IMG/VR virus record: IMGVR_UViG_2974506819_000001
Span: 98,789-162,788 of that record
Strand: one strand, 5' to 3'
From: a virus
Taxonomy: Duplodnaviria > Heunggongvirae > Uroviricota > Caudoviricetes
Length of the DNA: 64,000 nucleotides
Part shown: positions 1,169 to 32,484 of the stretch, piece by piece
Layout: every line of letters starts with the position of its first letter
Position numbering within the stretch: the stretch's first letter is position 1
Program-made: the position numbers and the translations under genes
Notes under the pieces: model-generated
Database searches by the model: none
What the model was told of the DNA's origin: nothing
What the model saw: only the letters and a program-made list of their open reading frames with translations

Positions 1169-4100
1169 ATGAATTTCCCCATTGTACAACAATATAAGTT
1201 TGATATTGATGGGACCAACCCTGAGAACAAAATCACTGACGAACCCATCAAAACCCCAGCCGGTATTTGGAACCGCATTATTGTTCCGGTAAACGGTCCG
1301 TTCTTTGTTGACACCCTGGTGCTGACACTGCCTAACGGTAAACCGCTGGTCGAAGAGGTTGATTATCGCATCTTCCGTATGATGGGGAAACTGTCGGAGT
1401 TCTGTGCCAGGGATGTGGCCTGCATCATTGAACTGATTAAGCCGGAAATTACGGACGTCCTTGCTACCTACCATACCGTAGGGGAAACCACTCTGTTTGA
1501 CCGCAGCATGCTGCTGTTGATTATGGACGCCGTCAATGACGACCGTCCGGTGTGGTGGGAGAACGTCCTGAACAAACCGGTGGCTTTCCCGCCGACTCTG
1601 CACGGTCACAGTTTGATTTATGAAATGGTGGCCTTCCAGGACATGGTGTCGATGATCGACGAGTTGTTGGATTTCCTCAACGACGGTCACCGCGATTTGC
1701 TGGAACTCAAAATCGACCACCTGAGCACGCTGATTGATTGGTACATCAGTCTGTATACCCAAACCCTGACGAAGTATCTGGAGCGTCATGAGGCGTCGTA
1801 CAACGCCCATGGGTTAACAGCCGCACAGGCCGGTGCCGATTTAATCGATAACTTCCCAACGGCGACCTTAACCCAGTCGTTGCAGGGTGAACGATCTGAC
1901 CTGGTGATTAAGCCAGCGGGACTAAAAGCACTGATGCAGGAATACGGTTACAACAGTGACTTCTTCCTGGAAACCAACATCATTCCGCTTTCCCGTTACG
2001 GTGCGCGTAGCTTTATCCCACCTTCTATTGATGGTAACTTCGAAGGCCTGGGAGCAGAAGTTGAAACCACCGGTATCTGTATGGAATCCGACGGGTCGCT
2101 GAGTATTTTGAGCAACCACTGGGATGGACGTACCGAAGGCTTGTACTTCAGTACCTGTCCAAACTATCAGGTAAAGGTGGAACGTATCTTCACCGGCTTT
2201 AAATACACGCACCAGAAAATCATTGCCAACGGTCAGGAAGTCACCCGCGTTATTGGTGGCACTAACCATGAAGTAATTATGGTGGGGCGTCCAGGTACAC
2301 CGAACTGGTTTGTGGGGTTAAGTAAAGGCACGTTGAACCCGTCGAAACATATTCTCTCTAAAGTGAATATGAAGCCGATTAACGATGCCATCGGTAACCC
2401 CAACGGTCAGAACTACAACAGCCACGATAAGCTGTCTGTGCACCTCATGGGGAACTGGGTTTACTTTATCCAGACCTACAGTGGTCCGTTAGGTGAAAAC
2501 GGCAGCAAGCGGCTTTTCCGGGTTCCTCGTGCATCGGTAGAAGCAGGTCTTGATGTAACGCCTACATCGATTAAGATTACGTACAAGAACTGGGACGGTA
2601 AACAGTACAACAGCGTCGATGAGTTCATCTGGGGTTCTCCAACGTTCGACAGTAACAATGCCGCAACGCGTTACCTGTTTAACTTTAACCCGGCTGTTCC
2701 GACCGCCACTACCGGTGGACTGTACCGTGCTGCAGTTACCCTTTCCTGTGCCATTCCGAACAAAGCCAACGCCTATGTGCTGAAGTTCATGAGTCACTTC
2801 TGGATTCCGTACATCGCTGGCAACGTCTCCACCGCCATCGATTGCTCTCCAGAGCTGGTATACGAATTTAACCCAGACACCGGGGTAATGACGTTAATCA
2901 GTAAGAGCGATGAACCCGGTGTTGTGGACATGACGAAAGGCAACGTTTCAGTTAACACCCTTAACGAAAACTCCAACGGGTTAATCGTTGCTAACTGGTC
3001 TCGTCAGGCTGCAGTGGTGTTGCCCAATGGTGATGTGGTGTTTGGGGGGAGTTCACTTTATTCGTACCCGCACTACCTCTACATTTACAAAACCGGCCAA
3101 CGTACACCGTATGAAACCATGAAGCTATGGTGGTCACGTCGTAACTTCCCGGCATCGGGATATGCAAGTGCGACTGAAATACCGGTGTCACCTATTGTGA
3201 GCGGCATTCAGCAGATTGGGGTGACGTACGACAATGAAGGTGAGTTCTACACAGCCTATCCGCAAAACGCATTGAATACCAAGTACCTGTACCACCGTAC
3301 GGTTACCGGTGACTATGCCAAACGCGAAGGGGTCAACAACCTGATCTATCCGAACTATTACTCTCGTCCAGTGGGTGGTGTGGTTAAACGGATCATGGCG
3401 ATGTGTAACACTCCCCGTATCAATATCACTGGTACGGCTACCCAAATTTCCAAATACGGATTAAACCTGGGATGGACTGGATTTGGTATGGGTCCTGAGG
3501 AACGTTTCTGGCGCCGTACGCAGAACTCGAACTGGACACCGGGAACAAACGATAATGATATCATGCTGGTCACGGCACACAACAAGCGTGACAACGGCGA
3601 CGGTACCATATCGTTGATTCCAACCAAACAGGTGCTCTGGCCTGCGGCCATTGTCAATCAGTTAAAGAACCTGATTCCTGCAGCGTACCGCAGCTCTCCG
3701 GATATCGCAGTCAGTATCATTGACTTCAGTGATGGTCCGGAAGGTAAGTTCGGCAGCTTCCCGGCAATCGTCCAGATTTATTATGTGGACGTTTCTCGTG
3801 CTATGGCACGTCAGATGTTCTTAACCGTTCGTCCGACGTACAGTGCGCCGTCAGGGATTCGCCGTACGGTAACAGGTTACACCATTCTGGGGTCATTGGA
3901 CGTTGACGTCATGGGCAGCCAAACCGACGTCTCAACGTGGCAACCGTATTTTGTGGGTGGGGTAAACGGTAGTGTAGCGAAAGCCGATATCTACCTGAAT
4001 GATGACGGCACCATGGAAGTGGACATTTGTTCAGGGGTCGCGTCACAGCATGCTGGTAACAACAGTATGGCGTGTGCACGTTTCACCATTAACAAGTCCA

Positions 4101-27957: not shown

Positions 27958-28241
27958 CGTAGCGGGCTGGGTATCCAGCCCCTATAGAAAAGTGAAAACC
28001 ATTGCCATGGTTTTAACCCAACCGGTAAGAGTCCTTTGGACCGCCTCCTGTTCGAGGCCATTTTTCTATAGTCACCTCGTTAATGCCAACACATCTGATA
28101 CGTAGATGCCTTAGGAATCCTTTCTGATTCCGGGAGAAAAAGGAATTTCTCCTTCTTTTTATTCCGTGGCCTTCCCGTAGTTATCTACGGGAGGGTCCAT
28201 ACTACAACAATCATTTTTATTTTTTGTAAGGAAACCGTTTC

Positions 28242-28877: not shown

Positions 28878-29328
28878 GATTGCATACATGACCTATCTGG
28901 TGAATGAGATACCGATTGTGTTTCATTCTGCGCTTATGTCGCTGGCTAAGGAGCTCGTAGCATATGAGCAACAGCTTACGATGGATGTGCTGGGAAAACA
29001 GCGTCACATGGTTCCTGTGGACTCTGTGAAGGACTTCTTTATTGAAGACAGCGTGGTTGTGGTGGCCTTTAATGAGCGGGAAGAGTTACCGGTGGGGTTC
29101 TGTAGCTATTGGGCAGAACCGACCCAGGGTCGGCTGATTATCGACACGGTTTACGTTGCTCCTGCTTACCGTCAACAAGGCATTGCCAGGGCCATGTTAG
29201 CAGGACCCCTGGACATGGGGTTCTCACTTATTGACATTCACGCCATGGCGAATAACCCCGCAGCGTTAAAACTGTATGCGTCATTAGGATTTAAACCCTA
29301 TATTACTACGATGACGAAAGTAAATTAA
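28870..29328 (+). CDS. GNAT-family N-acetyltransferase (152 aa)
   Basis: ATG 28870 with SD aaggaag, overlapping upstream stop by 8 nt (ATGTCTAA); motif A YRQQGIARAML; ORF-track N-terminal extension rejected. Confidence 0.65.
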   Translation: MSKIAYMTYLVNEIPIVFHSALMSLAKELVAYEQQLTMDVLGKQRHMVPVDSVKDFFIEDSVVVVAFNEREELPVGFCSYWAEPTQGRLIIDTVYVAPAYRQQGIARAMLAGPLDMGFSLIDIHAMANNPAALKLYASLGFKPYITTMTKVN

Positions 29329-29354: not shown

Positions 29355-30356
29355 ATGTCAAGCTTAGAACAAATGTTTGATAAAGCCATGAACGAACATA
29401 CTGCTTCGTTTAATTCAAACCTAAAAACCATTAATGCCAAAGGGTGGGTAAACGATTGGGTTAACCGCCACAACGGCAAAGTTCCAATTAACTTTATCCC
29501 TTACGAAGAATTTCGTGCTCACCTAACTTCATTCTTTAAACCCGGCCACGGTCACGATGAAGCCGGTGCTGATGTTGTTGGGTTAACACTGTTTCAACAT
29601 TTGATGTACAACTTGACCAAAGTGGATATCCATGTCGAAGAAACCGTTATTGTGGAGTTAATGAATGACACCACCTTCGATAAAGATGAAGCAAAAATAC
29701 CCACAGAAGTATTAAAGCGGCTCCCCTACTGGTCGGTGCACATTCCTATCACCAGAAGCTTTAATGAAGAGGTAGACGATCCGAACGCCAATTATTATAA
29801 GTTTCTCGAGGTGTACGTCAGCCGCATTAACATCGATAATGACGACGCGTTATTAATTGACATCAATGCGATGTACAAAGATAAAATTCTGCAACACACC
29901 AGAGTGATATCATTAAATTCCCCTACTATACGGGAGGGGTTAGAACGTCACGCCGACATGAATGACCGGCTGGATATAAACAAACACGGTGATATTTTTG
30001 ACTTTACCTTACGTCAAGTGTTTCCGGTTATTTTGTATGTGTGTTCTCAGCAAAAACAAAAGGACATTGGTAGTTCCCCCCTGACCGGGTACAGTATCAA
30101 ACGAAAAGGGAAGAACTTTGTTTTAAAAGCAGCCCCTAAAGTCAAAGTGATTGAATATGGACAAGAGCTAAAAGAACAGCTTGAACGTTTCCATCAATTG
30201 CTAAAACAAGAGCGTGACTTTAAAGGCCGTATTCCCCATATTCGTAAAGCGCACTGGCACGGTTACTGGATAGGACCTCGTGTTGGTGAACGTGATTACA
30301 TCTATCATTGGATTCCGCCAGTCATTGTGTCGGGTTCTGAAGCAGAAATTAAGTAA
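29355..30356 (+). CDS. Hypothetical protein (333 aa)
   Basis: ATG with strong SD aaggagac. Confidence 0.55.
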   Translation: MSSLEQMFDKAMNEHTASFNSNLKTINAKGWVNDWVNRHNGKVPINFIPYEEFRAHLTSFFKPGHGHDEAGADVVGLTLFQHLMYNLTKVDIHVEETVIVELMNDTTFDKDEAKIPTEVLKRLPYWSVHIPITRSFNEEVDDPNANYYKFLEVYVSRINIDNDDALLIDINAMYKDKILQHTRVISLNSPTIREGLERHADMNDRLDINKHGDIFDFTLRQVFPVILYVCSQQKQKDIGSSPLTGYSIKRKGKNFVLKAAPKVKVIEYGQELKEQLERFHQLLKQERDFKGRIPHIRKAHWHGYWIGPRVGERDYIYHWIPPVIVSGSEAEIK

Positions 30357-30760: not shown

Positions 30761-30931
30761 ATGAAAACGAATGTTACAACAAACACCGACCCGTTTATTG
30801 GTCGTCAGGTCCCTGACAGTGAGCCGGTCGTGATGTCTAAAACTAAACTGCTGGTGATTGCCTTGGTGGCTTTCCTGACAGGGATGTGCTTTGGTGCAGC
30901 TTTCATGTTGGAATACATCCCATGGTTATGA
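30761..30931 (+). CDS. Small C-terminally membrane-anchored protein (56 aa)
   Basis: ATG with SD aggtaac; C-terminal TM LLVIALVAFLTGMCFGAAFML; below ORF-track size cutoff. Confidence 0.35.
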   Translation: MKTNVTTNTDPFIGRQVPDSEPVVMSKTKLLVIALVAFLTGMCFGAAFMLEYIPWL

Positions 30932-31161
30932 TGAAAAGCGCTCTGTCGATATCAGTGTCGTTACATCTGAGCGGAACATTGGGATTAAAACCCATCACGC
31001 ATAATCCTTACCTGTATGGTGGTTGGCGTTTGCTGCCCGACGTGGAAACCACAACGATATATCAGAAACCCGATTCGGTTTATGAAAACGTTGTGCATGC
31101 CCATCTAACAGCGAACATGACACCGAAGGAAAACATCCCTAGAGTGAGAATTGTGAAATAA
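30928..31161 (+). CDS. Hypothetical protein (77 aa)
   Basis: ATG overlaps upstream stop (ATGA); speculative. Confidence 0.3.
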   Translation: MMKSALSISVSLHLSGTLGLKPITHNPYLYGGWRLLPDVETTTIYQKPDSVYENVVHAHLTANMTPKENIPRVRIVK

Positions 31162-31227
31162 GTTATCCTGTTACTTTTTACAAAACAATATATACTTTGT
31201 TCACTTACAACTTTTTAGGGAATCCTT

Positions 31228-31578
31228 GTGGGAACTTTTTCTGTTTATTTTGCGGCCAGCCCAATTAAGTTTCTGATTGGGTTGGTGCTGTTGTTGATAT
31301 TCCTCATCTCCTTTATCCGGGGTAATCAAGTAGCTTGGAAAAGAATGGGGTTGAAGCGGGATACCCGTTTCTATATCTCAGCAGCACTGGTTCTACTGTA
31401 CTTTGCTTTGGGGTTTAACATCGGACACCGACAAACCGATTTACACCGCGAGCAATTTGACACACCGATGGCTACCACAGCACCGGAATTACCTGCAGAA
31501 AGGTCGATTGAAAAACCTGATGCAAAAGCACTCTTTAAAACTGAATTAGAAAACATTAAAAAGGAAAACGCACAGTGA
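31228..31578 (+). CDS. Two-TM membrane protein (116 aa), partner of SPFH gene
   Basis: GTG start; two hydrophobic helices then charged tail; stop overlaps the SPFH gene start (GTGA). Confidence 0.45.
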   Translation: MGTFSVYFAASPIKFLIGLVLLLIFLISFIRGNQVAWKRMGLKRDTRFYISAALVLLYFALGFNIGHRQTDLHREQFDTPMATTAPELPAERSIEKPDAKALFKTELENIKKENAQ

Positions 31579-32444
31579 AACGTGTTATCGCACTTATTGG
31601 TTTAATCTTCGCTTCTATTCTTCTCTCTGGCTGCGGTGAGGTTGTTGAACCCGGCTTCAAAGCCAAGTTCCTCAGCCGCGACGGGTATTCTCCGGAAATC
31701 AAAGAGTCCGGTCGTTACAACGTCTTCTGGTGGGAAGAGCTGGTCTTCCTGGAAACGTCCACCAAAACTGTTTCTGTTCCGCTGAAAGTGAAAATGGCCG
31801 ACGGCCTTGATCTGAAGTTCAATATCAACTTCCGTACCCGCATCGGTGGGAACGACAAAGTTCTGAACGCCATGTTCAACGATGTTAAAGTTGATGTCGA
31901 TGAACAAGATCGTAAGGTCATCACGCTGGACAAAGTATTTAACATCTACGGCAGTGACGTGGTCAGTAACGTTGGCCGGTCGGTGCTGGGCAAATACAAA
32001 GTGGAAGAGGTCGCCAAGAAGTACGACGACATCAACAAACAGCTTCAGGTTAAGCTTAGTGAAGCCATGAAGAACAACCCGCTGGAAGTTTCTAACGTCA
32101 CCCTGGCTGATGTAGACTGGCCGAAAGTTATCACCGACGCGATTGAGAAACAATCCGAACGCGAACTGGCGATTAAGACCGAAGAGAACCAGCAGGCAAT
32201 CGAAATGGTGAAACGCACCAATGAGCTGGCACTGGCTCAAGCGGACCGCGAAATTGAACTGACCAAAGCCCGTACGTTGCGTGATCAAAACGCCATTACC
32301 AACGAAGGCTTGAGCGACAAACTCCTGGCTTACAAAGCACTGGACGTTCAAGCGAAAATGGCAGAAAACAAAGCCGCCATCTTTGTTCCGTACGAAGCGT
32401 TGAATGCCCCAGGGTTATCCAACCGCGTCTTTAACAACAAGTAA
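31575..32444 (+). CDS. SPFH/band-7 (HflC/prohibitin-like) domain lipoprotein (289 aa)
   Basis: Lipobox LLSGC; SPFH-like core and C-terminal coiled coil (ELAIKTEENQQAIEMVKRTNELALAQADREIELTKAR); terminator 32451-32484 follows. Confidence 0.65.
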   Translation: MKRVIALIGLIFASILLSGCGEVVEPGFKAKFLSRDGYSPEIKESGRYNVFWWEELVFLETSTKTVSVPLKVKMADGLDLKFNINFRTRIGGNDKVLNAMFNDVKVDVDEQDRKVITLDKVFNIYGSDVVSNVGRSVLGKYKVEEVAKKYDDINKQLQVKLSEAMKNNPLEVSNVTLADVDWPKVITDAIEKQSERELAIKTEENQQAIEMVKRTNELALAQADREIELTKARTLRDQNAITNEGLSDKLLAYKALDVQAKMAENKAAIFVPYEALNAPGLSNRVFNNK

Positions 32445-32450
32445 TTCGGT

Positions 32451-32484
32451 GTCCTCCTGTTTCGGCAGGAGGATTCTTTTCTTT
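32451..32484 (+). terminator. Rho-independent terminator after SPFH operon
   Basis: 8-bp stem tcctcctg / caggagga then ttcttttcttt. Confidence 0.7.

What the first reader, a model, noticed from the sequence alone, without database searches (positions are those of the whole stretch)
30761..32444. SPFH/band-7 lipoprotein operon with small membrane partners
Four tightly linked genes: a 56-aa C-terminally anchored membrane protein, a 77-aa ORF coupled by ATGA, a 116-aa two-TM protein, and a GTGA-coupled 289-aa SPFH (HflC/prohibitin/flotillin-like) protein with lipobox LLSGC and a C-terminal coiled coil. A terminator follows at 32451. In bacteria SPFH proteins scaffold membrane microdomains and regulate the FtsH protease (HflK/C) or pair with NfeD partners. 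The two-TM partner here does not look like NfeD. A phage-encoded SPFH complex could manipulate FtsH-dependent proteolysis, membrane organisation for phage assembly or lysis timing, or act in superinfection exclusion.
Basis: partly seen in the sequence, partly recalled or inferred. Interest (0 to 1): 0.55.

Follow-up and report, generated by a model that had tools for sequence, protein, structure and literature searches.

The report
Phage SPFH lipoprotein with two-TM partner
A giant Erwinia phage carries a two-gene unit, found in hundreds of other large phages, that encodes a lipid-anchored prohibitin/HflK-like (SPFH) scaffold protein secreted to the periplasm and a small inner-membrane partner; the scaffold gene was already annotated, the constant partner was not, and the function is untested.

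Summary
The window is Erwinia jumbo phage RisingSun, and the four ORFs are gp128 to gp131. Coordinates, ATGA/GTGA overlaps, lipobox LLSGC, coiled coil and terminator are all confirmed.

gp131 is a genuine SPFH protein. It scores 53 bits against Pfam Band_7. Its AlphaFold model matches the prohibitin, HflK/C, stomatin and QmcA cage subunits over the full length. GenBank already names it an SPFH protein, and the genome paper detected it by mass spectrometry.

The four-gene operon is not the functional unit. gp128 and gp129 occur only in RisingSun and Joad. A conserved 66-bp spacer with a promoter-like TATATAC separates them from gp130.

The real unit is gp130 plus gp131. A small two-TM gene lay next to the SPFH lipoprotein gene, upstream or downstream, in 15 of 15 hand-inspected loci and about 25 of 27 metagenomic viral loci. 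These span jumbo, PAK_P3-like, T4-like, T5-like and Vi01-like phages.

The partner is not NfeD. It is predicted N-out/C-out with a periplasmic tail.

My best reading is a periplasmic SPFH cage on the inner membrane with a two-TM adaptor, made from early infection. In PAK_P3 the SPFH transcript is abundant at 3.5 min. Roles in FtsH control, exclusion or lysis are untested.

Verdict: a new variant of the SPFH-partner theme, of moderate interest.

The parts
30761..30931 (+). gp128: 56 aa with a single C-terminal TM. A Risingsunvirus-only ORFan, not part of the conserved module.
   Evidence: ORF and TM. Found only in RisingSun and Joad. pN/pS 0.36. PHROG 30745, function unknown.
30928..31161 (+). 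gp129: 77 aa, soluble, start overlaps the gp128 stop (ATGA). A Risingsunvirus-only ORFan, not part of the conserved module.
   Evidence: Found only in RisingSun and Joad. pN/pS 0.12. Its only Pfam match, Phage_TTP_14 at 19.3 bits, is below the cut-off of 27.
31162..31227 (+). Conserved AT-rich spacer holding TATATAC (31189-31195) and a Shine-Dalgarno-like AGGGA. A candidate phage promoter for gp130-gp131.
   Evidence: 2 of 66 differences from Joad, against 11-44% at synonymous sites. TATAT(T)AC occurs 7 times on the + strand and never on the - strand; 6 of the 7 lie 25-50 nt upstream of a start codon. TATATTAC occurs 5 times against 1.38 expected. Promoter function is inferred, not shown.
31228..31578 (+). 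gp130: the 116-aa two-TM partner. TM1 is about aa 13-31 and TM2 about aa 48-66, with a K/R-rich cytoplasmic loop. The periplasmic tail of about 50 aa has a juxtamembrane motif (FNIGHRQTDLHREQFD) and a C-terminal helix (aa 99-115).
   Evidence: Two-TM genes sit next to the SPFH gene in 15 of 15 hand-inspected loci and about 25 of 27 IMG/VR loci. No Pfam family and no NfeD domain.
31575..31634 (+). gp131 lipoprotein signal peptide (aa 1-19) and the lipobox cysteine Cys20 (TGC, 31632-31634). The GTG start overlaps the gp130 stop (GTGA). A Shine-Dalgarno AAGGA lies at 31561-31565.
   Evidence: Sequence. C20 is invariant and G19 at least 90% conserved in 40 homologues. A lipobox is present in 116 of 120 close homologues and in 120-123 of 130 cluster representatives. 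Weak match to a lipoprotein-signal model. Lipidation has not been shown experimentally.
31641..32195 (+). gp131 SPFH/Band 7 domain (aa 23-207).
   Evidence: Pfam PF01145, E 5.2e-14, 53.1 bits. AlphaFold pLDDT is about 90-95 over this region. Foldseek against PDB finds prohibitin, HflK/C, stomatin, erlin, flotillin and QmcA.
32124..32441 (+). gp131 coiled-coil helices (aa 184-245 and 248-264) and the conserved C-terminal segment (AIFVPYEAL..G.SNR). This is the likely oligomerisation wall and cap of an SPFH cage.
   Evidence: Secondary structure of the model. Conservation of F270, P272, Y273 and G280. Full-length alignment to cage subunits. Oligomerisation is inferred by homology.
32451..32484 (+). 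Intrinsic terminator that closes the unit.
   Evidence: dG -17.7 kcal/mol, z -3.0. Identical in Joad. A terminator is annotated at the same place after the Miami and pf16 homologues.

Best explanation
gp130-gp131 is a two-gene envelope module conserved in phages.

What the parts are (shown or directly predicted):
- gp131 is exported through a lipoprotein signal peptide and is predicted to be lipid-anchored at Cys20.
- Its SPFH domain starts immediately after the cysteine, so it sits flat against a membrane face in the periplasm.
- gp130 is a small inner-membrane hairpin. Its N-terminus and C-terminal tail are predicted to face the periplasm and its K/R-rich loop the cytoplasm.

How it probably works (inferred):
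- By homology with HflK/C, prohibitin, stomatin and QmcA, the coiled-coil and C-terminal segments of gp131 should assemble many copies into a closed ring or cage that fences off a patch of membrane.
- gp130 is probably the adaptor, nucleator or enclosed client of that cage. It would play the role NfeD or FtsH plays for cellular SPFH proteins, without being related to either.
- I judge the cage most likely to sit on the periplasmic face of the inner membrane.
- It is made from early infection onward, with the SPFH subunit in excess over the partner.
- Its most likely role is to compartmentalise or stabilise the infected cell's inner membrane, acting on a conserved target (lipid or a conserved host membrane protein) rather than serving in lysis or in the virion.

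Status of each step:
- Shown: fold, signal sequence, gene pairing, purifying selection, expression.
- Inferred: lipidation, cage formation, gp130-gp131 contact, inner-membrane location, physiological role.
For: SPFH identity:
- Pfam Band_7, 53 bits.
- AlphaFold model with mean pLDDT 83.8.
- Foldseek full-length matches to prohibitin 8rrh (E 4.5e-14), HflK/C 7vhq/9cz2/7wi3, stomatin 9z7u and QmcA 8z5g.

Lipoprotein anchor:
- The lipobox is invariant in close homologues.
- It is present in 120-123 of 130 cluster representatives.

Partnership:
- A two-TM gene is adjacent, often with overlapping stop and start, in RisingSun, Joad, Miami, PA1C, PAK_P3 and pf16 (upstream).
- It is adjacent downstream in 4L372XY, ACP17, ValKK3, D484, SYP and AhP_Mru1.
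- It is also present in two MAG loci, in about 25 of 27 IMG/VR loci, and as an unannotated 69-72 aa ORF in PhiSH19.
- Two conserved short motifs lie in the partner's tail.

Partner topology:
- The N-terminus has no K/R in 13 of 14 partners.
- The loop is net positive in 13 of 14 partners (+1 to +9; zero in ACP17), and the tail is roughly neutral.

Inner-membrane location:
- The PhiSH19 partner has almost no periplasmic residues, so any contact must occur at the inner membrane.
- Three to four family members replace the lipobox with an uncleaved TM anchor.
- There is no disordered tether after Cys20.

Expression:
- gp131 was detected by LC-MS/MS in a crude lysate (PMC6034870 Table 4).
- PAK_P3 gp041 has 65120/7411/49091 reads at 3.5 min, log2FC -0.51 (not significant) at 13 min, and 8-55 times (about 38-fold in the deepest replicate) the reads of the partner gp040 (PMC4933390 S5 Table).

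Conserved target:
- 57-72% identity across Erwinia, Klebsiella, Stenotrophomonas and Pseudomonas phages.
- pN/pS 0.08.

Context:
- The neighbours are replication or nucleotide-metabolism genes, never lysis cassettes.
Against: - There is no experimental evidence of lipidation, oligomerisation, gp130-gp131 binding or any phenotype.
- The residue after the lipid-modified Cys (+2) is Gly, and in the family it is mostly Ser, Gly or Thr; Asp is rare. Under the enterobacterial +2 rule (established knowledge) this predicts transfer to the outer membrane, not inner-membrane retention.
- The missing N-terminal linker is weak evidence, because only about half of E. coli outer-membrane lipoproteins have such a linker (bioRxiv 10.1101/2021.01.05.425367 abstract).
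- The partner model has low confidence (pLDDT 60).
- The partner families are so divergent that common ancestry of the upstream and downstream types is not demonstrated (alignment A2, 27% mean column identity and no invariant column).
- L039 has only a one-TM neighbour, and L028 has a partner fragment.
- Timing data come from one distant phage (PAK_P3), not from RisingSun.
Confidence: 0.45

Rival explanations
1. Outer-membrane version. gp131 is sorted by the Lol pathway to the inner leaflet of the outer membrane. Its cage hangs into the periplasm, and the periplasmic tail of inner-membrane gp130 reaches it, forming a trans-envelope tether. Such a tether could stiffen or seal the envelope or block incoming phages.
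For: - The +2 residue is Gly in RisingSun. Across the family it is Ser, Gly or Thr, with Asp in only 5 of 116 and 2 of 120. The enterobacterial +2 rule (established knowledge) then predicts the outer membrane.
- Most partners carry a periplasmic tail of 50-65 aa with conserved terminal motifs.
- A prophage-encoded HflK/C-like SPFH protein of Pasteurella multocida, PM0222, is found in outer-membrane vesicles (PMC9872710).
- SPFH proteins turn up in phage-lysate proteomes that may contain vesicles.
Against: - The PhiSH19 partner has no tail.
- Some family members carry an uncleaved inner-membrane TM anchor in place of the lipobox.
- There is no tether between Cys20 and the fold.
- The relation of PM0222 to this clade was not tested.
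Confidence: 0.25
2. HflK/C mimic. The phage cage captures or excludes the host FtsH protease, or another conserved inner-membrane protease or translocon. This would change turnover of host or phage membrane proteins such as LpxC, sigma-32 or SecY during infection.
For: - It has the same fold and the same periplasmic orientation as HflK/C, the cage that encloses FtsH (established knowledge of 7vhq, 7wi3 and 9cz2).
- High conservation across hosts fits a conserved host target.
- It is expressed early.
Against: - No NCBIfam HflK or HflC match.
- The profile of this clade retrieves only 906 clusters out of 1.84 billion, so it is well separated from cellular HflK/C.
- There is one SPFH gene, not an HflK/HflC pair.
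- The anchor is a lipid rather than the N-terminal TM and tail through which HflK contacts FtsH.
- No data on interaction exist.
Confidence: 0.2
3. Superinfection exclusion or protection of the infected cell. Early-made envelope proteins would block DNA entry or tail penetration by later phages, in the manner of T4 Imm/Sp or T5 Llp.
For: - Early and continuous transcription in PAK_P3.
- The combination of a lipoprotein and a small inner-membrane protein resembles known exclusion pairs (my own knowledge of T4 Imm/Sp and T5 Llp).
- The module occurs in virulent phages only.
- In PhiSH19 the next gene upstream belongs to Pfam GP17, 'superinfection exclusion gene product 17'.
Against: - Exclusion proteins are usually small, receptor-specific and fast-evolving. 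gp131 is 57-72% identical across phages of four host genera and has pN/pS 0.08.
- The partner has no hit to the Imm family.
- PADLOC finds nothing.
- The GP17 neighbour occurs in one lineage only.
Confidence: 0.15
4. Lysis component. The pair would be a spanin-like or antiholin pair: an inner-membrane protein plus a lipoprotein that controls envelope disruption or its timing.
For: - An inner-membrane protein and a lipoprotein encoded by overlapping genes is the spanin gene layout (established knowledge).
- The partner is a small two-TM protein with a charged tail, which is holin-like in outline.
Against: - The partner has two TMs and a mostly disordered tail, not one TM and a periplasmic coiled coil.
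- The lipoprotein is 270 aa with an SPFH fold, not a short proline-rich o-spanin.
- The transcript is abundant at 3.5 min in PAK_P3.
- The pair was next to an endolysin or holin gene in none of the loci inspected.
- T4-like and T5-like carriers are expected to have their own lysis genes (my own knowledge).
Confidence: 0.07

Closest known systems
E. coli HflK/HflC cage around FtsH (PDB 7vhq, 7wi3, 9cz2)
   Same: SPFH1/2 domains, a long coiled coil and a C-terminal segment (Foldseek E 3e-12 to 1e-11). The SPFH domain faces the periplasm and sits directly on a membrane.
   Different: One SPFH gene rather than a K/C pair. A lipid anchor replaces the N-terminal TM. No NCBIfam HflK/C match. The clade is separate at sequence level. 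The neighbour is a 116-aa two-TM protein. No link to FtsH is shown.
SPFH-NfeD operons (E. coli QmcA-YbbJ, PDB 8z5g; YqiK-YqiJ; archaeal stomatin-STOPP)
   Same: An SPFH gene paired, often with translational coupling, with a gene for a small multi-TM membrane protein. QmcA is a structural match (E 1.5e-9).
   Different: The partner lacks the NfeD OB-fold domain (no PF01957; the model is helices plus disorder). QmcA faces the cytoplasm, whereas gp131 is exported. Gene order varies in the phage module.
PHROG 200 'lipoprotein' (SPFH lipoproteins of phages such as PAK_P3 gp41, KPP10, Miami gp157 and Kuttervirus/Vi01-like phages)
   Same: gp131 is a member (E 1e-51), and PhiSH19 is also in PHROG 200. 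Genome papers repeatedly note these genes and call the function unknown (PMC7760394, PMC13239085).
   Different: No difference for gp131 itself. The adjacent two-TM genes are scattered over at least four unrelated-looking PHROGs (32239, 13586, 15523, 11680) or left unannotated, so the pairing has not been recorded.
PM0222, a prophage-encoded HflK/C-like SPFH protein of Pasteurella multocida (PMC9872710)
   Same: An SPFH protein encoded by a phage element in a Gram-negative host. It is found in outer-membrane vesicles and signals through TLR1/2.
   Different: It comes from a temperate lambda-like prophage and was studied as a virulence factor.
T4 Imm/Sp and T5 Llp envelope exclusion proteins
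   Same: Early-made small inner-membrane or lipoprotein products of virulent phages that act in the envelope (my own knowledge). This is a functional analogy only.
   Different: No sequence or fold relation. Those proteins are small and lineage-specific, whereas this module is large, widely shared and strongly conserved.

Membership tests
SPFH / Band 7 superfamily (Pfam PF01145) | Sequence match above the curated threshold | tested here: met
   53.1 bits against a cut-off of 23.6, E 5.2e-14, residues 23-207.
SPFH / Band 7 superfamily (Pfam PF01145) | Alpha/beta SPFH domain followed by a long coiled-coil helix and a C-terminal segment | tested here: met
   AlphaFold model with pLDDT 83.8. Full-length Foldseek matches to prohibitin, HflK/C, stomatin, erlin, flotillin and QmcA, E 4.5e-14 to 1e-8.
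SPFH / Band 7 superfamily (Pfam PF01145) | Assembly into a membrane-attached homo- or hetero-oligomeric ring or cage | not testable with these tools
   Only monomer prediction was available. Conservation of the C-terminal FVPYEAL..G.SNR segment is consistent with it.
Bacterial lipoprotein (Lgt/LspA/Lnt substrates) | Signal peptide ending in a lipobox [LVI][ASTVI][GAS]C | tested here: met
   MKRVIALIGLIFASILLSGC. C20 is invariant. Lipobox in 116 of 120 and in 120-123 of 130 relatives. Lipidation itself is not testable here.
HflK/HflC modulators of FtsH | Two paralogous SPFH subunits (HflK and HflC), each with an N-terminal TM anchor | tested here: not met
   A single SPFH gene, and the neighbour is not SPFH. 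A lipobox replaces the TM anchor. No NCBIfam HflK/HflC hit.
HflK/HflC modulators of FtsH | Physical enclosure or regulation of FtsH | not testable with these tools
   Needs co-purification or structural work.
SPFH-NfeD operon pair | An adjacent co-directional gene for a small membrane protein | tested here: met
   GTGA overlap in RisingSun. Adjacency in 15 of 15 hand-inspected loci and about 25 of 27 viral contigs.
SPFH-NfeD operon pair | Partner carries the NfeD C-terminal OB-fold domain (PF01957) | tested here: not met
   None of 19 partner-family members hits Pfam NfeD. The model shows only helices and a disordered stretch (low confidence).
Two-component spanin (i-spanin and o-spanin) | i-spanin with one N-terminal TM and a periplasmic coiled coil; a short o-spanin lipoprotein; placement in a late lysis cassette | tested here: not met
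   The partner has two TMs and a disordered tail. The lipoprotein is a 270-aa SPFH fold. Abundant at 3.5 min in PAK_P3. No lysis genes adjacent.
T4 Imm-type superinfection immunity protein (Pfam Imm_superinfect) | Sequence match of the two-TM partner to the family | tested here: not met
   No such hit among 19 partner sequences at E <= 0.05.
Known anti-phage defence proteins (PADLOC) | Match to any PADLOC model | tested here: not met
   No hit for any of the four proteins at E <= 0.1.

The most novel reading that the evidence does not exclude
Large virulent phages of Gram-negative bacteria share a dedicated envelope structure built from two proteins: a lipid-anchored periplasmic SPFH cage and a phage-specific two-TM adaptor unrelated to NfeD. 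Built early in infection, it would wall off patches of host membrane. It might trap a conserved host factor such as FtsH, or bridge the inner and outer membranes, and so keep the envelope of the infected cell intact and closed to competitors until lysis. That would be a widespread, previously unrecognised phage strategy and the first SPFH cage known to be anchored by a lipid.
Probability: 0.2. Interest if true: 0.7.

Novelty: new variant of a known kind. Interest (0 to 1): 0.45.

Why it matters
SPFH cages (HflK/C, prohibitin, stomatin, flotillin) have only recently been resolved, and how they choose their clients is still open. Phage SPFH genes are noted in many genome papers, but their function is described as unknown as late as 2026.

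This analysis shows that they form a compact clade found almost only in phages. Nearly all members are lipoproteins, and nearly all are paired with a small two-TM gene of very divergent sequence.

That gives a minimal two-protein system that can be expressed, purified and deleted in tractable phages such as PAK_P3, Kuttervirus and Schizotequatrovirus. It would allow tests of what an SPFH cage does to a bacterial envelope during infection.

It also corrects annotation. The partner is unannotated in PhiSH19, carries a flap endonuclease-1 domain note in the PAK_P3 RefSeq record, and is split over several PHROGs.

Tried and rejected
- NCBIfam and PADLOC scans of all four proteins gave nothing useful.
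- tblastn with gp130 alone found only the Miami-type relatives. The wider pairing appeared only when neighbours were inspected by hydropathy.
- The genome-contig scan found only two MAG loci, both in phage-like context, so no cellular operon could be used to infer function.
- The partner AlphaFold model is low confidence (pLDDT 60), so I ran no fold search on it.
- The afdb50 fold library was unavailable. The BFVD search only showed that SPFH folds are common in viruses.
- A literature search for the motif string TATATTAC returned irrelevant papers. The two giant-phage transcriptome papers do not print the early-promoter consensus in text. The resemblance to phiKZ-type early promoters therefore rests on my memory only.
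- The supplements of the PAK_P3 cappable-seq paper are not held, so a separate start site for gp41 could not be checked.
- Rfam and tRNA scans of the window found nothing.
- The terminator-like site at 31255-31286 lies inside the TM1 coding region of gp130, and I treat it as chance.
- The weak tail-tube match of gp129 is below threshold and I reject it.
- The PhiSH19 'superinfection exclusion protein' next to the module is a soluble P22 gp17-family protein, not the two-TM partner.
Full report
**Source and observation**

The window matches Erwinia phage vB_EamM_RisingSun at 100% identity (MF459646, 235 kb, genus Risingsunvirus). It is 93% identical to phage Joad. The four ORFs of the finding are GenBank gp128 to gp131.

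- 30761-30931, 56 aa, with one C-terminal hydrophobic segment.
- 30928-31161, 77 aa, with an ATGATGA overlap.
- 31228-31578, 116 aa, with two hydrophobic segments.
- 31575-32444, 289 aa, with a GTG start inside cAGTGA and the N-terminus MKRVIALIGLIFASILLSGC.

A hairpin terminator follows at 32451-32474. Its dG is -17.7 kcal/mol, its z-score is -3.0, and no shuffle folds as well.

All four ORFs are real genes by the RisingSun-Joad comparison, with pN/pS of 0.36, 0.12, 0.17 and 0.08. The genome paper detected gp131 by LC-MS/MS in a crude lysate and already called it an SPFH-domain protein (PMC6034870 Table 4). The SPFH annotation is not new.

**gp131 is an SPFH protein of the cage-forming type**

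- Pfam Band_7 scores 53.1 bits against a cut-off of 23.6.
- PHROG 200 'lipoprotein' matches at E 1e-51.
- An AlphaFold model built on 40 homologues has mean pLDDT 83.8. It shows a signal helix, an alpha/beta domain, a 62-residue helix (184-245), a second helix (248-264) and a less confident C-terminus.
- Foldseek against the PDB aligns the whole chain to prohibitin (8rrh, E 4.5e-14), HflK/C (7vhq, 9cz2, 7wi3), stomatin, erlin, flotillin and QmcA (8z5g).
- Sequence-only searches of the PDB reach only Pyrococcus stomatin and prohibitin weakly.

The clade is distinct from cellular SPFH families:
- A profile of this clade finds only 906 cluster representatives at E <= 1e-3 among 1.84 billion, and 153 at <= 1e-30.
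- A pattern-based scan of 185,579 species genomes found two loci, both in MAG contigs with phage-like neighbours.

**The lipid anchor is the rule in this clade**

- Cys20 is invariant in the 40-sequence alignment.
- 116 of 120 close homologues have a lipobox.
- 120 to 123 of 130 full-length representatives have a lipobox.
- The residue after the cysteine is mostly Ser, Gly or Thr, and rarely Asp.
- Three or four members instead have an uncleaved N-terminal TM segment (P0019, P0200, P0226, P0259).
- In the model the fold begins at the cysteine, with no disordered tether.

**The four-gene operon is not the functional unit**

- gp128 and gp129 have homologues only in RisingSun and Joad.
- gp129 has no TM segment.
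- The nearest relatives of the SPFH gene in other genera have different genes in those positions.

The 66-bp spacer before gp130 also separates the two halves:
- It differs from Joad at 2 of 66 positions, while synonymous sites differ by 11 to 44%.
- It contains TATATAC.
- TATAT(T)AC occurs seven times in the window, always on the coding strand. Six of the seven lie 25 to 50 nt upstream of a start codon.
- TATATTAC alone occurs 5 times against 1.38 expected.

I read the spacer as a candidate phage promoter. Its likeness to the AT-rich early promoters of phiKZ-like phages rests on my memory, because the papers I could read do not print the consensus. On the 5' side nothing delimits the unit. 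gp127 ends 14 nt before gp128, and the nearest upstream motif is at 29299, before gp126.

**The real unit is gp130 plus gp131**

tblastn with gp130 finds only RisingSun, Joad and the C-terminal half of the gene upstream of the SPFH gene in Miami, KPN8 and BUCTxx100. Inspection of neighbours by hydropathy shows a much wider pattern.

| SPFH identity to gp131 | Phages | Position of two-TM gene | Size |
|---|---|---|---|
| 50-95% | Joad, Miami, PA1C, PAK_P3, pf16 | directly upstream, overlapping or within 10 nt | 100-121 aa |
| 24-30% | Aeromonas 4L372XY and AhP_Mru1, Acidovorax ACP17, Vibrio ValKK3 and D484, Pseudomonas SYP | directly downstream | 105-130 aa |
| about 40% | two MAG loci | upstream | about 100 aa |

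- Of 27 IMG/VR loci with a complete SPFH gene, about 25 have a full two-TM upstream partner. One has a partner fragment behind an extra ORF (L028). One has a one-TM neighbour (L039).
- In the Vi01-like Salmonella phage PhiSH19, the SPFH lipoprotein also falls in PHROG 200. An unannotated 69-72 aa two-TM ORF ends exactly at the SPFH start codon. That SPFH gene is found in 182 phage records.
- The partners fall into at least four separate PHROGs of unknown function, or none. This explains why the pairing has not been noted.
- The SPFH gene of the RisingSun type is present in 126 phage records from Pseudomonas, Vibrio, Aeromonas, Klebsiella, Erwinia, Acidovorax, Stenotrophomonas and Variovorax phages.

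**What the partner looks like**

- In 13 of 14 partners the short N-terminus has no Lys or Arg. The loop between the TM segments is net positive in 13 of 14 (+1 to +9; zero in ACP17). The tail is about neutral.
- By the positive-inside rule the loop is cytoplasmic, and both the N-terminus and the tail face the periplasm, where the SPFH protein is.
- Within the closer subfamily, three short motifs are shared: Y[LF][SA]WS before TM1, F[ND][IV]G.RQ..L.R..F[DN] right after TM2, and a C-terminal helix with a conserved Phe.
- The AlphaFold model is of low confidence (pLDDT 60). It shows two TM helices, a disordered stretch (79-98) and one short helix (99-115).
- No member hits NfeD or any other Pfam family convincingly.

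**Expression and context**

- In PAK_P3, the published RNA-seq table gives the SPFH gene gp041 65120, 7411 and 49091 reads at 3.5 min. Its share of phage reads is unchanged at 13 min (log2FC -0.51, not significant). The partner gp040 has 8-55 times fewer reads, about 38-fold in the deepest replicate (PMC4933390 S5 Table).
- pf16 carries an annotated phage promoter inside the partner gene, just ahead of the SPFH gene.
- In every locus inspected the neighbours are replication, nucleotide-metabolism or unknown genes. In ValKK3 the pair lies on the strand opposite to the baseplate genes.
- No endolysin, holin or spanin gene is adjacent anywhere.
- The protein is strongly conserved across phages of different host genera (57-72% identity; pN/pS 0.08).

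**Most likely mechanism**

Shown or directly predicted from sequence:
- An exported SPFH protein of the cage-forming architecture with a lipobox.
- An obligatorily linked inner-membrane hairpin protein with a periplasmic tail.
- Early and sustained transcription in one family member.

Inferred:
- gp131 is lipidated and assembles through its coiled coil and C-terminal segment into a ring or cage on a membrane face in the periplasm.
- gp130 is its adaptor, nucleator or enclosed client. It fills the role NfeD or FtsH fills for cellular SPFH proteins.

Which membrane is not settled.
- For the outer membrane: the absence of Asp at +2 predicts Lol-dependent transfer in Enterobacterales. A prophage SPFH protein of Pasteurella is found in outer-membrane vesicles.
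- For the inner membrane: the tailless PhiSH19 partner, the members anchored by an uncleaved TM segment, and the lack of a tether after Cys20. The tether argument is weak, because only about half of E. coli outer-membrane lipoproteins have one.
- I put the inner-membrane version ahead, at roughly 60:40.

As to purpose, conservation and timing fit best with a general action on the membrane or on a conserved host membrane protein from early infection. They fit a receptor-specific exclusion protein, a lysis factor or a virion part less well. FtsH capture and superinfection exclusion remain open and are listed as rivals.

**Comparison with known systems**

The module works like an SPFH-partner operon and shares the periplasmic orientation of HflK/C.
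- It is not HflK/C. It has one subunit, a lipid anchor and no equivalog match.
- It is not an SPFH-NfeD pair, because the partner lacks the OB-fold domain.
- It is not a spanin pair.
- gp131 is a member of PHROG 200 and of Pfam Band_7.
- Genome papers on Eneladusvirus (2020) and on phage GIB1 (2026) state that the role of phage SPFH proteins is poorly understood or unclear.
- Searches of the held library for SPFH together with phage, lipoprotein, superinfection exclusion or jumbo phage found no functional study.

**Verdict**

The four-gene operon shrinks to a conserved two-gene module. The constant pairing of a lipid-anchored SPFH protein with a divergent non-NfeD two-TM protein, across many families of large virulent phages, is the new point.

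I rate it a new variant of a known kind, with moderate interest (0.45). No function is shown. The system is small, widespread and directly testable.

Noticed in passing
window 25727, 29299, 31189, 34904, 38469, 49490, 61302 (+ strand): The motif TATAT(T)AC occurs seven times, always on the coding strand. Six of the seven lie 25-50 nt upstream of a start codon. TATATTAC occurs 5 times against 1.38 expected. It is a candidate phage promoter element that the RisingSun genome paper's motif search did not report.
   Followed up: partly
L043 (Salmonella phage PhiSH19, JN126049) 1932-2150, minus strand: An unannotated 69-72 aa two-TM ORF (PHROG 11680) ends at the start codon of the SPFH lipoprotein gene. 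Several other Kuttervirus records do annotate a small ORF there.
   Followed up: yes
P0122: A protein 83% identical to gp130 is recorded from a 232,710-bp contig of a Salmonella enterica serovar Minnesota assembly. This suggests a RisingSun-like jumbo phage associated with Salmonella.
   Followed up: no
L005 (PAK_P3, NC_022970) 2102-2467: The RefSeq note for gp40 reads 'flap endonuclease-1; Provisional', but the protein is a 121-aa two-TM membrane protein.
   Followed up: partly
window 29355-30356 versus L002 2519-3007: RisingSun gp126 ('putative mycothiosynthase', 333 aa) corresponds to a much shorter gene in Joad (489 nt), and the megablast match to Joad begins only at window 30359. The two phages therefore differ just upstream of the finding.
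   Followed up: no
window 27958-28241 (between gp123 and gp124): An unusually long 284-bp non-coding stretch with several GC-rich inverted repeats. Rfam finds nothing in the window.
   Followed up: partly
L043 2138-2458, minus strand: In PhiSH19 the gene just upstream of the two-TM/SPFH pair belongs to Pfam GP17, 'superinfection exclusion gene product 17' (E 6e-50). It is a soluble acidic protein, and the adjacency is seen in this lineage only.
   Followed up: partly
L009 and L010 (Vibrio phages ValKK3 and D484): In T4-like Schizotequatrovirus genomes the SPFH/two-TM pair is inserted between baseplate wedge genes and the PAAR/gp5 hub genes, on the opposite strand.
   Followed up: no
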